A stretch of DNA of 64,000 nucleotides from Octopus sinensis (taxonomy: Eukaryota): the NCBI RefSeq assembly GCF_006345805.1, contig NC_043003.1:31062001-31126000 (forward strand), given 5' to 3'. The number at the start of each line of letters is the position of its first letter. Position 1 is the stretch's first letter. Shown piece after piece: positions 47,978 to 59,301 of this stretch. The position numbers were made by a program.

Positions 47978-50900
47978 GAATATATGTATGTATGTGTGTA
48001 TGCATGTATATATATAAGTATGTATGTATGTATGTATGTATGTATGTATGTATGTATGTATGTATGTATGTATGTATGTATGTATGTATGTATGCGCGCC
48101 TGCGTGTTTGTGTTTGTATGTATCATAGGAATTTCATTTCGACATCAATAACAGTAATGAGTTACATGCTATATTTTATAAAAAAAAAATAATTTACTCT
48201 GTCATGCTGGTAAACTGAGCTTGAAGAATAGACATATTAGATGGCGTCGCTATTTCAAACATTGAAGGTTATTAATTAAAAAAAAAAAAAAGAAATTTAT
48301 AGTCACTGTAACGATGAGAGCATAAACATCTAATCAGAAATTGTTATGCAATAAGGTAAAGACGACATAAACTGGATAACGAATGTAACTTGAATAATTT
48401 CAGCGTGTATTTTGCTGAGGAGGTTTAATATGTCGGAAGCATAACCGGAGTTATCTCGTGTAATAATTGATTAACCTTTGAAAAAATATTGATAACAATT
48501 AAGGAACATAGGCTTGAGACGTCAAAGGCATTTCTATTTTTCCTGACCGTCAAACTAATACACCTGCTTGTTGTTTCCTCACGTGTCTCTCTTTCGTTTT
48601 CTATACATTTGAACCTTATATATATATATATATATATATTGTCATAAAAAAAGGGGTAGAATTAATTAATTGTTAATAAATTCGACCAAGCAGTATTCGG
48701 TATGTAAAGACCATTTACGGTATATTTGAAGTATTAATTTATAAAAATATGGTAAAGTAAAAAAATTCACTTTACCACACACCGAACTTTTCAGAAATAG
48801 CAGCCAAAAATTTGGCTATTTCTTCAACTGCAAATAAAAGTCTCCAGACAATGCATACTCAGAAAATAACTCACATAGGTATAAGGGAAAAAAACAATGA
48901 AAGATCACATCCATATACGATACCCGAGGACAGTCTGTTTCTGGATTTGTGGGTAAAACGCCACTTTTCCTTCATCAGCTCAGAGATTTCTTCTGATTTA
49001 GATTTGAAAATACTAAGAATCAAACATACCCGTCCGATATCTGTAACATCGGACAAACCATGCCAGACACCCAGTACTAGCGAATCCAAAAATACGAATG
49101 AGATCTATTGTTCTCCCTGTCCACCCACGTGAGTCATAGAGCATTACATTTCTACAGAGGTAAAAACTGCAGTTCAAATTCTTGGAGAGAAAGCATTATA
49201 TTGTCATCAAAAAAGGGTGGCTGCTATTTCTGAAAAGTTCGGTGTGTGGTAAAGTGAATTTTTTTACTTTACCATATTTTTATAAATTAATACTTCAAAT
49301 ATACCGTAAATGGTCTTTACATACCGAATACTGCTTGGTCGAATTTATTAACAATTAATTAATTCTACCCCTTTTTTGATGACAATATAATGCTTTCTCT
49401 CCAAGAATTTGAACTGCAGTTTTTACCTCTGTAGAAATGTAATGCTCTATGACTCACGTGGGTGGACAGGGAGAACAATAGATCTCATTCGTATTCTTGG
49501 ATTCGCTAGTACTGGGTGTCTGGCATGGTTTGTCCGATGTTACAGATATCGGACGGGTATGTTTGATTCTTAGTATTTTCAAATCTAAATCAGAAGAAAT
49601 CTCTGAGCTGATGAAGGAAAAGTGGCGTTTTACCCACAAATCCAGAAACAGACTGTCCTCGGGTATCGTATATGGATGTGATTTTTTTCCCTTATACCTA
49701 TATATATATATATATATAGTGTTTCACGGATTAAGAGGAAACATTTATATCACATTGTTACTGTTATTTCTGAATGTCGTTCCAATGTTAATAACGTGAT
49801 TTTCTTCTTCCTCTCTTGTCTCTAAATCAAACGATATAATTGAATAGAACCCCTCTTTCTCTTTCTCTGTCTCTCTATCTATCTTTTTCCCTCTTTGTTT
49901 TTTTTCCTTTCTCCAAAAAAAACATTAAAAAATTCTCCTCATCTAAACAAAGCATAGAACGTCCATAAAAGAACAAACAAAAAACAAAGCAAAAAATAAA
50001 ATGTCACATTCACCAAGGATACGCTGTTTTTATGATTTTGATTTTAATTCTTATCGTGAAGAGTTCGTTTAAACGAACGAAAGCGCTTATAATAAAGCAT
50101 TATATAATAAAGAATTATCCAAAATTCTGACTGCTTCCTTTTCTCTCGATACACACACACGCACAAACACACACAGACACTCACACACACAGACACACGC
50201 ATGCACGCACGCATGTATATGCATGAATGCATGTATGTGTGTATGTTTTTGTATGAACATGATTTTTGTATGAACATGATTTTAACATGATTAAAAGCAC
50301 AATGAGCGAAGAAAAATATCTCGTCTGTGTCAATGGCATTAATTTAGATAAATATATCAAGAGACATTGAATACTGCATGTAACAATTTCTTAATCAAGT
50401 TCTTAATTGAAAAAGAAAGCAACAACATATACTTACCTTGTTCAAAGCATGAAAATTGATTGTAGGAGATTAATTCTTAATTTCACAAAATTATTTCCTT
50501 TTTCTTCGAGAATTGTTAAAAATTACCAGTCGATTTTCGTTATATTTTCATCTAAGAAGATTTCGAGTGTACTACAATTTTTACGAATGGCATTAAGTGC
50601 AACATCCTTATTTTATGGTGGAAACGGTTATGTCATTCTTGAAATTTATTTTAGAAATGAGATATGAAGGAAGAAATATAAGCATTTTGGGCAATCTGAA
50701 GAATGCACAAACATTTAAAAAAGAAGAGTCAAGTTACTGCCCGCTCTCACTTACTGGGAAAAGATCTCCAAATCATTACATTCCTCGTCATAATTGTCCA
50801 TCTATCCATCCATTTTTACCGCCTACTATTTTACCGCCTACTAAAAAAAGGCTGAGTAGACGCAGGAGTGGCTGTGTGGTAAGTAGCTTGCTTACCAACC

Positions 50901-51237
50901 ACATGGTTCCGGGTTCAGTCTCACTGCGTGGCACCTTGGGCAAGTGTCTTCTACTATAGCCTCGGGCTAACCAAAGCCTTGTGAGTGGATTTGATAGACG
51001 GAAACTGAAAGAAGCCCGTCGTATATATGTATATGTATATGTATAAATGTGTGTTTGTGTGTTTGTCTTTGTCCCCCCAACATCAGAGTTTTATGTCTCC
51101 GCAACTTAGCGGTTCGGCAAAAACCCTCCGATAGGATAAGTACTAGGCTTGCAAAGAATAAGTCCTGGGCTCGGTTTGCTCGACTAAAGGCGGTGTTCTA
51201 GCATGGCCGCAGTGAAATGACTGAAACAAGTAAAAGA

Positions 51238-57800: not shown

Positions 57801-59301
57801 ATAATTTGAATTCGCCTTAAATGGTCCCTTTGCATACTGAACACTTGGTGAAATTGATTAATAATTAATTTTACCCTCAATTGTTGAAATTATAATTCAT
57901 CTCTCTCTATTTAATGCCTCGGATTTTACCGAAAAAAGCATAGTGTTTGCTGATTTTAACCCACGCTGGTGGAAAGGGGAGAGCAGAAATTCTTCGCTTG
58001 CATATTTGGGTTTGTTGGCACTGTTAGTTACGAGCGGATCTTCAAAAGCGATAGGAGGCCGAAGGAGTATGCTCCCACTTTCAGTGTTTTCAAATCCAAA
58101 CCAGGGAGTTCTGAGCTGATGATAGAAATGTCGAGTTTTGGACTAATCTTGAAACGTACGTTCTCAAATAACCTTTGCATCTGATTTTTTAATGTCTCTA
58201 CCCCCCATACTTCCGTGAGTTGAATTGAGCAAACACTATATGAGAGAGGTTTTCTTTAAGTATTAGAAATAGTTTTATAAATATTTTTTTAGCTGCTATT
58301 TCTAATGAGTTCAGTATGCGGTAAAGTAATTTAATTTATTTTACTAAGCCCTTTTATATAATGTAATAATTTGAATTCGCCTAAATGGTCCTTTGCATAC
58401 TGAACACTTGGTGAAATTGATTAATTAATTAATTTTACCCTCACCCTCAATTGTTGAAATTATAATTCATCTCTCTCTATTTAAATGCCTCGGATTTTAC
58501 CGAAAAAAGCATAGTGTTTGCTGATTTTAACCCACGCTGGTGGAAAGGGGAGAGCAGAAATTCTTCGCTTGCATATTTGGGTTTGTTGGCACTGTTAGTT
58601 ACGAGCGGATCTTCAAAAGCGATAGGAGGCCGAAGGAGTATGCTCCCACTTTCAGTGTTTTCAAATCCAAACCAGGGAGTTCTGATCTGATGATAGAAAT
58701 GTCGAGTTTTGACTAATCTTGAAACGTACGTTCTCAAATAACCTTTGCATCTGATTTTTTAATGTCTCTACCCCCCATACTTCCGTGAGTTGAATTGGGC
58801 AAACACTATATGAGAGAGGTTTTCTTTAAGTATTAGAAATAGTTTTATAAATATTTTTTTAGCTGCTATTTCTAATGAGTTCAGTATGCGGTAAAGTAAT
58901 TTATTTTACTAAGCCCTTTTATATAATGTAATAATTTGAATTCGCCTTAAATGGTCCTTTGCATACTGAACACTTGGTGAAATTGATTAATTAATTAATT
59001 TTACCCTCAATTGTTGAAATATATATATATATATTATATATATATATATATATATAATATATATATATAAATAACATTCTTTTATTCTTTTATTCTTTTA
59101 TTGGTTCCAGTCATTTAACTTCGGCCATGTTAGTACACCGCCTTTAGTCGAACAAATTGACTCCAGGACTTATTCTTTGTAAGCATAGTACTTGTTCTAT
59201 CGGTCTCGTTTGTCGAATTGCTAAGTTAGGGGGGCGAAAATACACCAACATCGGTTGTCAAGCGATGTAGGGGCACAAATACAGATACACAGACATATAC
59301 A

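What the first reader, a model, noticed from the sequence alone, without database searches (positions are those of the whole stretch)
48639..59020. Three distinct hammerhead-ribozyme tandem arrays within about 10 kb: a retrozyme-like circular-RNA retroelement system
Seen: three non-coding repeats with different sequences and unit lengths (about 562, 507 and 560 bp). Nearly every unit holds one complete type I hammerhead (stem I - CUGAUGA - stem II - GAAA - stem III - UH - stem I'), 16 copies in total. Copies within an array are almost identical, so the arrays are recent, while between arrays the stems differ completely yet still pair. Known: hammerheads occur in PLE pLTRs and in metazoan non-LTR retrozymes, whose tandem transcripts self-cleave to monomers and circularise. 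Inference: these are non-autonomous ribozyme retroelements with units longer than I recall for most described animal retrozymes, copied by a PLE RT. I do not know of a description in cephalopods but cannot verify novelty.
Basis: partly seen in the sequence, partly recalled or inferred. Interest (0 to 1): 0.93.

Follow-up and report, generated by a model that had tools for sequence, protein, structure and literature searches.

The report
Ribozyme-carrying Penelope-type repeat insertions, head-to-head
Three related non-coding repeat families carrying a hammerhead-ribozyme-like motif sit in TA microsatellites as back-to-back mirrored arrays, the insertion footprint of Penelope-like retroelements; this is a known class of element, here seen in an octopus-like genome.

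Summary
The 16 hammerhead-like motifs and the three unit lengths (562, about 503 and about 560 bp) are real. The loci are not plain tandem arrays, though. Each is a head-to-head pair of tandem arms, the left arm on the minus strand and the right arm on the plus strand. The 5' ends meet in the middle and the 3' ends abut (TA)n microsatellites.

[quoted passage not shown] The motifs keep the hammerhead core and three helices, with compensatory changes between families. They resemble the 'minimal' PLE-type hammerhead: an unpaired base after A9, a short helix I and a palindromic helix III. However, no Rfam hammerhead model scores them, and the 10.1-11.1 pair is non-canonical. No RT or endonuclease ORF was found in the window.

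Best reading: three related families of non-coding, PLE-mobilised, hammerhead-bearing elements in an octopus-like genome. They belong to the animal non-LTR retrozyme / PLE-derivative class. Self-cleavage and RNA circles remain untested. These are new members of a known kind, and the unit size lies within the published range.

The parts
48635..49217 (-). Family A1, left arm: 1.04 units of a 562-nt repeat; 3' end at the left (TA)n, 5' end at the centre
49215..49712 (+). Family A1, right arm: 0.88 unit; 3' end runs into (TA)n at about 49699
51692..52610 (-). Family A2, left arm: about 1.8 units of about 503 nt
52612..54848 (+). Family A2, right arm: about 4.4 units
54852..57444 (-). Family A3, left arm: about 4.6 units of about 560 nt
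57448..59020 (+). Family A3, right arm: about 2.8 units. BLAST stops at 59009 because of a 6-nt insertion in the query unit; the sequence reads on to about 59020.
49602..49663 (+). A1 hammerhead-like motif, cleavage predicted after C 49657
48923..48984 (-). A1 hammerhead-like motif, minus-arm copy
53016..53080 (+). A2 motif, cleavage predicted after A 53075. Identical copies start (first C of the core) at 53524, 54024 and 54528 (+).
51858..51922 (-). A2 motif, minus arm, passes the descriptor. A second minus copy (core at 52424) has helix I position 2.1 changed and fails.
57553..57606 (+). A3 motif, cleavage predicted after U 57602. Further plus copies have cores at 58116 (1-nt insertion in the helix II loop) and 58687 (helix I 2.1 changed; fails the descriptor).
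55051..57346 (-). Span holding the five A3 minus-arm motifs (cores at 57342, 56783, 56217, 55660, 55099); all five pass the descriptor
48617..48639 (.). (TA)n abutting the 3' end of the A1 left arm
49699..49718 (.). (TA)n abutting the 3' end of the A1 right arm
51634..51704 (.). (TA)n abutting the 3' end of the A2 left arm
54834..54867 (.). (TA)n shared by the A2 right arm and the A3 left arm
59019..59069 (.). (TA)n abutting the 3' end of the A3 right arm
58286..58470 (+). Best-conserved module outside the ribozyme motif, shown in one A3 unit; A1 equivalent 49220-49390. It holds a conserved long-range stem and the two TA-rich stretches where five of the six arms end.

Best explanation
These are three related families (A1, A2, A3) of short non-coding retroelements. 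They depend on a Penelope-like element (PLE) reverse transcriptase/GIY-YIG endonuclease encoded elsewhere, and each unit carries a minimal, PLE-type type I hammerhead motif.

Each locus is most likely one insertion into a (TA)n microsatellite. Both strands of the cut target primed reverse transcription of a more-than-unit-length template RNA, either a multimeric transcript or a circle. Priming started at internal TA-rich sites of the RNA. The two cDNAs grew towards each other and were joined 5' to 5', giving a minus-strand arm on the left and a plus-strand arm on the right.

Shown here: the repeat anatomy, the motif and its pairing, the target, and the absence of coding capacity. Inferred: the PLE enzyme, the single-event origin, and any ribozyme activity. 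The motif would act as a double hammerhead between neighbouring units, probably helped by protein.
For: Anatomy:
- 3 of 3 loci have the same geometry, minus arm then plus arm, with no (TA)n at the central junction.
- 6 of 6 arm 3' ends abut pure (TA)n tracts, which cover only 1.47% of the window (38 tracts).
- 5 of 6 arm ends fall in two TA-rich stretches that are homologous between families and lie about 90-95 nt apart.
- The 5' junctions lie at different unit positions, indicating variable 5' truncation.
- The outer termini of a locus are not inverted copies of each other.
- Unit variants are star-like: about 1 shared event of about 22 in A3 and about 1 of about 16 in A2. This fits units that were identical at insertion.

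Motif:
- The core is intact in 16 of 16 copies.
- 14 of 16 copies pass the descriptor, against 0.027 hits expected per shuffled window.
- Helices I, II and III pair in all three families. Both-sided changes between A2 and A1/A3 occur at helix I pairs 2, 3 and 4, helix III pair 3 and the helix II pairs.
- Each family has an unpaired base after A9, a helix I of 4-6 bp and a palindromic helix III. Cervera & de la Pena 2014 list these traits for PLE minimal hammerheads (PMC4209133, text parts 1-2).
- The A2 homodimer minimum-energy fold is the double hammerhead, at -43.1 against 2 x -17.4 kcal/mol.

Whole unit:
- Units fold far better than shuffles, with z -4.5 (A2) and -8.0 (A3) on the sense strand and weaker values on the antisense strand.
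- GC is 33-36%.
- The two unit ORFs tested have no Pfam family.

Literature:
- PLE insertions are 5'-truncated partial tandems, often with an inverted 5'-truncated copy upstream, and show microsatellite bias, (TA)n in Naiads (PMC8557442, passages).
- A purified PLE protein cleaves and extends both strands, prefers AT-rich DNA and starts reverse transcription internally at two sites (PMC11167929, main text).
- Animal retrozymes are argued to be non-autonomous PLE derivatives (10.64898/2026.07.22.740005, abstract and Results).
- Octopus vulgaris has 336 recently active Penelope-like insertions (PMC13282606, Table 1 passage).
Against: - No RT or GIY-YIG ORF was found in the window: 30 ORFs were scanned and none hit such a domain. 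The mobilising enzyme is therefore inferred only.
- No Rfam hammerhead model reaches E<=10 even on 101-nt pieces.
- The 10.1-11.1 pair next to the core is non-standard in all three families: A x A, a bulged U plus G-U, and U x U. Cervera & de la Pena 2014 list a conserved G10.1-C11.1 as a hallmark.
- None of the six 3' ends or six 5' ends coincides with the predicted cleavage site, so the DNA carries no footprint of ribozyme cutting.
- In the one PLE tested in vitro, the hammerhead was not needed for insertion (PMC11167929).
- The descriptor was written after seeing the motifs.
- Genome-wide copy number and other species could not be examined.
- The inversion junctions rest on a single assembly.
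Confidence: 0.7

Rival explanations
1. Tandem transcripts self-cleave at the hammerheads, the monomers are ligated into circles of about 503 or 560 nt, and rolling-circle reverse transcription of one circle makes the multi-unit arms.
For: - The arms hold up to 4.6 units, and the units start out near-identical with star-like variants.
- Arm 3' ends lie at internal sites and not at an RNA end, as expected for a template without ends.
- The units are highly self-paired.
- Cervera & de la Pena 2014 and 2020 propose this model (PMC4209133 Discussion; PMC7229834 Discussion passage).
Against: - The motif is of the minimal type, which showed low activity in vitro (PMC4209133).
- There is no footprint of cleavage at any arm end.
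- A multimeric linear transcript explains the arms equally well, and unprocessed RNA was the main substrate in vitro for PAc (PMC11167929).
- A1 has one motif per arm and cannot release a monomer.
- No RNA data were available here.
Confidence: 0.3
2. The units are not a separate non-autonomous family. They are the pseudo-LTR/UTR part of an ordinary autonomous octopus PLE, seen here as ORF-less truncated insertions.
For: - PLE insertions are heavily 5'-truncated, and their hammerheads sit in pLTRs (PMC8557442, PMC4209133).
- Most minimal hammerheads in genomes occur as single elements, probably related to truncated PLEs (PMC4209133).
Against: - The arms hold several complete head-to-tail units with no ORF between them. 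There are 4 full units in A2 and 6 in A3, so the template itself lacked an ORF.
- Three families show the same ORF-less organisation.
Confidence: 0.2
3. This is ordinary satellite DNA in which a hammerhead-like string occurs by chance. The palindromic layout arose by DNA-level inverted duplication.
For: - No Rfam hammerhead hit.
- The centre of A3 is nearly symmetric, with the two 5' ends within about 7-11 nt of the same unit position.
- A 5-nt insertion is shared by the second unit from the centre in both A3 arms.
Against: - The core and all three helices are kept in three families that are only 45-61% identical.
- Chance expectation is 0.027 hits per window.
- A1 and A2 are not symmetric about their centres.
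- The arms are not mirror images in their variants.
- All six ends lie in (TA)n.
Confidence: 0.05
4. These are foldback or MITE-like DNA transposons with long inverted arms that insert at TA.
For: Each locus has inverted arms and TA-rich flanks.
Against: - The two outer termini of each locus lie at different unit positions and are not inverted repeats of each other.
- Arm lengths are unequal.
- No transposase is associated. The only transposase fragment, of Tc1 type, lies 3.6 kb away at 62685-63068.
Confidence: 0.03
5. The inversions are assembly artefacts, such as chimeric foldback reads, laid over plain tandem arrays.
For: Craig et al. note that such structures cause assembly problems (PMC8557442 passage). 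Many unit differences are 1-nt indels, which may be read errors.
Against: - Three separate loci have asymmetric arms and different junction phases, which is not the perfect palindrome of a foldback read.
- The same geometry is a documented PLE feature.
Confidence: 0.05

Closest known systems
Minimal hammerheads (min-HHR) of metazoan Penelope-like elements (Cervera & de la Pena 2014, PMC4209133)
   Same: Type I topology, an unpaired base between A9 and helix II, a short helix I (4-6 bp), an extended helix II, and a short palindromic helix III implying dimer action. Motifs also occur on opposite strands a few hundred bp apart.
   Different: The pair next to the core is not G-C. Helix II is interrupted by an internal loop. 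Helix III is 2-4 bp rather than absent or 1-2 bp. No flanked RT-EN ORF is present in this window.
Animal non-LTR retrozymes (Cervera & de la Pena 2020, PMC7229834; Li et al. 2026 preprint, 10.64898/2026.07.22.740005)
   Same: Non-coding, low-GC, head-to-tail units, each with a type I hammerhead motif. The RNA is predicted to be highly self-paired. A PLE is the proposed mobiliser.
   Different: The 2020 definition rests on canonical hammerheads with loop-loop contacts and monomers of 170-400 nt. Here the motif is of the minimal type and the units are 500-562 nt, which is inside the 51-972 bp range of the 2026 preprint. The arrays are inverted double arms. Circular RNA was not tested.
PLE insertion architecture and mechanism (Craig et al. 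2021, PMC8557442; Frangieh et al. 2024, PMC11167929)
   Same: 5' truncation, partial tandems, an inverted copy joined at the 5' side, a microsatellite or AT-rich target, priming on both target strands, and internal alternative start sites of reverse transcription.
   Different: (TA)n bias was reported for Naiads, which lack canonical hammerheads and are only old remnants in cephalopods. Here (TA)n goes together with a hammerhead motif and young copies. The two end sites are about 90-95 nt apart, not 30-40 nt. The end sites are TA-rich like the target, whereas PAc starts at a site not homologous to the target.
Amphibian satellite 2 / axolotl retrozyme hammerheads
   Same: A weak helix III with a palindromic loop, so the motifs work as dimers. 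Axolotl HHR_Amex2 has a U-U mismatch at the base of helix II and still cleaves, 22% in one hour (PMC7229834 passage). This is a precedent for the mismatch seen in A3.
   Different: Those motifs keep loop 1-loop 2 contacts and sit in units of 330-350 bp in plain tandem arrays.

Membership tests
Hammerhead ribozyme, type I | Conserved core boxes CUGANGA ... GAAA ... U-H | tested here: met
   16 of 16 copies
Hammerhead ribozyme, type I | Three helices around the core, with II and III closed by loops and I open | tested here: met
   14 of 16 copies pass the descriptor; the 2 failures have helix I position 2.1 changed.
Hammerhead ribozyme, type I | Standard G10.1-C11.1 pair directly next to the core | tested here: not met
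   With no bases skipped, the first pair is A x A (A1), U x U (A2) and U x U (A3). A2 gives G-U after skipping one 5' base.
Hammerhead ribozyme, type I | Match to a curated covariance model (Rfam hammerhead families) | tested here: not met
   No hammerhead family is listed at gathering score, at E<=10 on 14 kb, or on three 101-nt pieces
Hammerhead ribozyme, type I | Site-specific self-cleavage | not testable with these tools
   Needs transcription of monomer and dimer constructs
PLE minimal hammerhead (Cervera & de la Pena 2014) | [quoted passage not shown] | tested here: met
   A (A1), U (A2), U (A3)
PLE minimal hammerhead (Cervera & de la Pena 2014) | Palindromic 15.2-16.2 and loop 3; short helix I | tested here: met
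   Helix III strings read as palindromes. The A3 string is perfect; A1 and A2 are palindromic around one central base. Helix I is 6, 5 and 4 bp. The A2 dimer folds as a double hammerhead.
PLE minimal hammerhead (Cervera & de la Pena 2014) | Lies in the pseudo-LTR of an element with an RT-GIY-YIG ORF | tested here: not met
   None of the 30 ORFs scanned in the window hit an RT or GIY-YIG domain. This could not be tested genome-wide.
Animal non-LTR retrozyme | Head-to-tail tandem units, each with a type I hammerhead, non-coding, low GC | tested here: met
   4 full units in A2 and 6 in A3. GC is 33-36%. The two unit ORFs tested have no Pfam hit. A1 has only about one unit per arm.
Animal non-LTR retrozyme | Canonical hammerhead with loop 1-loop 2 tertiary contacts | not tested
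   No tool here scores tertiary contacts. The motif looks like the minimal type.
Animal non-LTR retrozyme | Unit-length linear and circular RNAs in vivo | not testable with these tools
   No transcriptome was at hand
PLE-type insertion | 5'-truncated partial tandem with an inverted copy joined at the 5' side | tested here: met
   3 of 3 loci
PLE-type insertion | Microsatellite or AT-rich target | tested here: met
   6 of 6 arm ends abut (TA)n
PLE-type insertion | Optional 30-40 bp 'tail' between two alternative start sites | tested here: inconclusive
   Two alternative end stretches are used, but they lie about 90-95 nt apart

The most novel reading that the evidence does not exclude
The six arm ends may be natural footprints of rolling-circle, target-primed reverse transcription. 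In this reading a telomerase-related PLE enzyme primes on both strands of a (TA)n target at UA-rich sites of an endless (circular) hammerhead RNA. By reiterative copying of those UA-rich sites it also lengthens the (TA)n tracts. The elements would then seed their own landing pads, which would explain three families landing within 10 kb and two of them sharing one (TA)n tract.
Probability: 0.12. Interest if true: 0.7.

Novelty: new member of a known kind. Interest (0 to 1): 0.45.

Why it matters
If confirmed, these loci would be a clean genomic record of three things:
- the two-strand priming and internal initiation so far shown for one lizard PLE in vitro;
- the link between animal retrozymes and PLEs argued in a 2026 preprint;
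- young, possibly active hammerhead-bearing elements in an octopus-like genome.

I found no description of such elements in cephalopods in the searchable library. The loci would also supply defined constructs of 503 and 560 nt for testing whether minimal hammerheads with a mismatched helix II base cleave as dimers.

It does not change the picture of what such elements are.

Tried and rejected
- **Tandem Repeats Finder** did not report the arrays, because its longest period is 500.
- **Rfam:** five searches gave no hammerhead. The miRNA, snoRNA and similar rows lie on microsatellites or are weak chance matches, and I set them aside.
- **Mirror test:** I tested whether the A3 arms are mirror images in their variants. 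There was no clear pattern beyond one shared 5-nt insertion, so the test is inconclusive.
- **Foldback/MITE, plain satellite and assembly artefact** were considered and rated low. The reasons are given under the rival explanations.
- **Pfam:** 30 ORFs gave only a sub-threshold zf-RVT hit at 1905-2303 and a Tc1-type HTH at 62685-63068.
- **Not checked:**
  - Genome-wide copies, other species and Repbase/Dfam PLE consensus sequences.
  - The supplements of PMC4209133 (min-HHR alignments), PMC8557442 (element consensus files) and the 2026 preprint (species tables). These are closed, and they may already contain mollusc or cephalopod motifs.
- **Taxon:** it rests on one protein hit, a Tc1 fragment 76% identical to an Octopus sinensis protein, so 'octopus-like' is an inference.
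Full report
**What is there**

BLAST of one unit of each family against the window and direct reading show three repeat loci between 48.6 and 59.0 kb, with no copies elsewhere in the 64 kb. Unit lengths are 562 nt for A1, 500-507 nt for A2 and 557-571 nt for A3. 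Within-family identity is 96.3-99.4%.

In all 3 of 3 loci, a block of copies on the minus strand is followed directly by a block on the plus strand:

| Family | Minus arm | Plus arm | Units per arm |
|---|---|---|---|
| A1 | 48635-49217 | 49215-49712 | 1.04 and 0.88 |
| A2 | 51692-52610 | 52612-54848 | about 1.8 and 4.4 |
| A3 | 54852-57444 | 57448-about 59020 | about 4.6 and 2.8 |

The element 5' ends therefore meet in the centre and the 3' ends point outwards. The window has no N and 36.7% GC. The arrays have 33-36% GC.

**The flanks**

All six arm 3' ends run straight into pure (TA)n tracts: 48617-48639, 49699-49718, 51634-51704, 54834-54867 (shared by A2 and A3) and 59019-59069. Such tracts make up 1.47% of the window, as 38 tracts. 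There is no (TA)n at the three central junctions.

Each arm stops where the unit itself is TA-rich, so the exact border is ambiguous by a few bases. In alignments of the families, five of the six ends fall in two homologous TA-rich stretches about 90-95 nt apart:
- The A2 and A3 minus arms end in the first stretch.
- The A1 minus arm and the A2 and A3 plus arms end in the second.
- The A1 plus arm ends at a third site.

The two outer termini of a locus are not inverted copies of each other. The central junctions lie at different unit positions in A1 and A2, and within about 7-11 nt of the same position in A3.

**The motif**

All 16 copies keep the CUGAUGA box, a GAAA box 27-33 nt downstream and a U-H site. 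Eight are on each strand, always in the sense of their arm.

Pairing read off by script:
- **Helix I:** 6, 5 and 4 bp in A1, A2 and A3.
- **Helix III:** 3, 4 and 2 bp, with a palindromic sequence.
- **Helix II:** two stacked stems with an internal loop.

Both-sided (compensatory) changes separate A2 from A1/A3 in all three helices. A1 and A3 share the first helix I pairs and the helix II layout, so 'the stems differ completely' holds only for A2.

A relaxed type I descriptor accepts 14 of 16 copies; the two failures each have helix I position 2.1 changed. It accepts nothing else on either strand. It finds 0.027 hits per dinucleotide-shuffled window, with 8 of 300 shuffles giving at least one hit. 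The descriptor was written after I had seen the motifs, so that figure is a guide and not a clean test.

Evidence against the motif being a hammerhead:
- No Rfam hammerhead family is reported at gathering score, at E<=10 on 14 kb, or on 101-nt pieces around each motif.
- The pair next to the core is non-standard in all three families.

**Which kind of hammerhead**

Cervera & de la Pena 2014 (PMC4209133, text parts 1-2 read) describe the minimal hammerheads of metazoan PLEs. Their traits are a larger helix II, a helix I of 4-5 bp, an unpaired nucleotide between A9 and 10.1, palindromic 15.2-16.2/loop 3, action as dimers, and low activity in vitro. They also report pairs of motifs on opposite strands 100-700 bp apart, and note that canonical descriptors gave few hits.

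The motifs here share the unpaired nucleotide, the short helix I and the palindromic helix III. They do not share the conserved G10.1-C11.1 pair. A U-U mismatch at the base of helix II exists in the axolotl HHR_Amex2 motif, which still cleaves at 22% in one hour (PMC7229834, passage).

Folding of short segments gives helix II in all three monomers. For A2, the homodimer minimum-energy structure is the double hammerhead (-43.1 against 2 x -17.4 kcal/mol). For A1 and A3 the dimer optimum is a different pairing.

**The rest of the unit**

- A1 and A3 align over the whole unit at 61% identity. A2 aligns at 45-47%.
- BLAST detects A1-A3 similarity (74-76%) only in a module of about 150-190 nt. That module contains the two end stretches.
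- An alignment fold of the module predicts a long-range 11-bp stem and a second stem. 4 of 19 pairs change on both sides (three sequences only).
- Circular folds of whole units are much more stable than shuffles. On the sense strand z is -4.5 for A2 and -8.0 for A3; on the antisense strand it is -4.1 and -5.3.
- Two ORFs lying in units have no Pfam family.
- Across the window, none of the 30 ORFs scanned hit an RT or GIY-YIG domain. The only hits were a sub-threshold zf-RVT at 1905-2303 and a Tc1-type HTH at 62685-63068.

**History of the units**

Variants among full units are nearly all private: about 1 shared event of about 22 in A3, and about 1 of about 16 in A2. Many are 1-nt indels, which may be read errors. 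The star-like pattern fits units that were identical when the locus formed. It does not fit a satellite homogenised by unequal exchange. The A3 arms are not clear mirror images.

**Mechanism**

Published work on PLEs describes each feature of these loci:
- Craig et al. 2021 (PMC8557442, passages): PLE insertions are 5'-truncated partial tandems, often with an inverted 5'-truncated copy at the 5' side. They show strong microsatellite bias, (TA)n in Naiads.
- Frangieh et al. 2024 (PMC11167929, main text read): a purified Poseidon protein cleaves and extends both target strands, prefers AT-rich DNA and starts reverse transcription internally at two sites. Its hammerhead is protein-assisted and is not needed for insertion in vitro.

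If each nicked strand of a (TA)n target primes a cDNA, the left copy must lie on the minus strand with its 3' end at the left flank, and the right copy on the plus strand with its 3' end at the right flank. This is what all three loci show.

I therefore take each locus as one PLE-type insertion of an ORF-less, more-than-unit-length template. Whether that template was a multimeric transcript or a circle cannot be decided here. No arm end, 5' or 3', lies at the predicted cleavage site.

A mobilising enzyme is plausible in this lineage. The only taxon clue, a Tc1 fragment 76% identical to an Octopus sinensis protein, points to an octopus-like genome. O. vulgaris is reported to hold 336 recently active Penelope-like insertions (PMC13282606, Table 1 passage).

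**Comparison and novelty**

Animal non-LTR retrozymes were defined as low-GC tandem repeats of about 170-400 nt with canonical type I hammerheads, expressed as circles, with PLEs as the suspected mobiliser (PMC7229834, passages). A 2026 preprint reports consensus lengths of 51-972 bp and places retrozymes next to PLE pseudo-LTRs (10.64898/2026.07.22.740005, abstract and Results read). The units here are therefore not unusually long.

They fit this class in layout, composition and lack of coding capacity. They carry the minimal motif, and their RNA biology is unknown.

In the searchable library I found no paper describing hammerhead elements in cephalopods:
- Searches found none.
- Two octopus or cephalopod repeat papers contain no occurrence of 'hammerhead' or 'ribozyme'.
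- Supplements, subscription journals and repeat databases were not visible.

**Verdict:** real features, a mostly correct idea and a wrong anatomy. These are new members of a known kind.

Noticed in passing
window 50860-51230 (+), 59100-59330 (-), 59329-59792: Copies of a SINE-like repeat with microsatellite tails. One stretch forms a 212-nt tandem of 2.2 copies at 99% identity. I recall a tRNA-derived octopus SINE of this look, but did not test it.
   Followed up: no
window 47750-48094: (GTAT)n microsatellite of 86 copies. It, together with the TA/CA tracts, produces the spurious mir-297, mir-1277 and mir-3149 rows in the permissive Rfam search.
   Followed up: partly
window 62685-63068 (-): Fragment of a Tc1/mariner-type transposase (HTH_Tnp_Tc3_2, E 4.7e-10). 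The best protein relative is an uncharacterised Octopus sinensis protein at 76% identity.
   Followed up: partly
window 1905-2303 (+): Weak, sub-threshold zf-RVT match (20.2 bits against a cut-off of 27.5) in a GC-richer stretch (44-49% GC across 1-4000). It may be a decayed non-LTR retrotransposon. Neighbouring ORFs gave nothing.
   Followed up: partly
window 58327-58331 and 56570-56575 (A3 units starting at 58116 (+) and 56783 (-)): The same 5-nt insertion occurs in the second full unit from the centre in both A3 arms (alignment columns 212-216). It could be a trace of a shared template or a recurrent slippage.
   Followed up: partly
window 28000-36000: Strong C-over-G skew, with GC skew down to -0.47. 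The 408-aa open frame at 28494-29720 overlaps two pure (TA)n tracts, 28538-28564 and 28594-28632, and has no Pfam hit.
   Followed up: no
window 54834-54867: Families A2 and A3 share one (TA)n tract, and three families lie within 10 kb. This suggests repeated use of the same microsatellite neighbourhood as a target.
   Followed up: no
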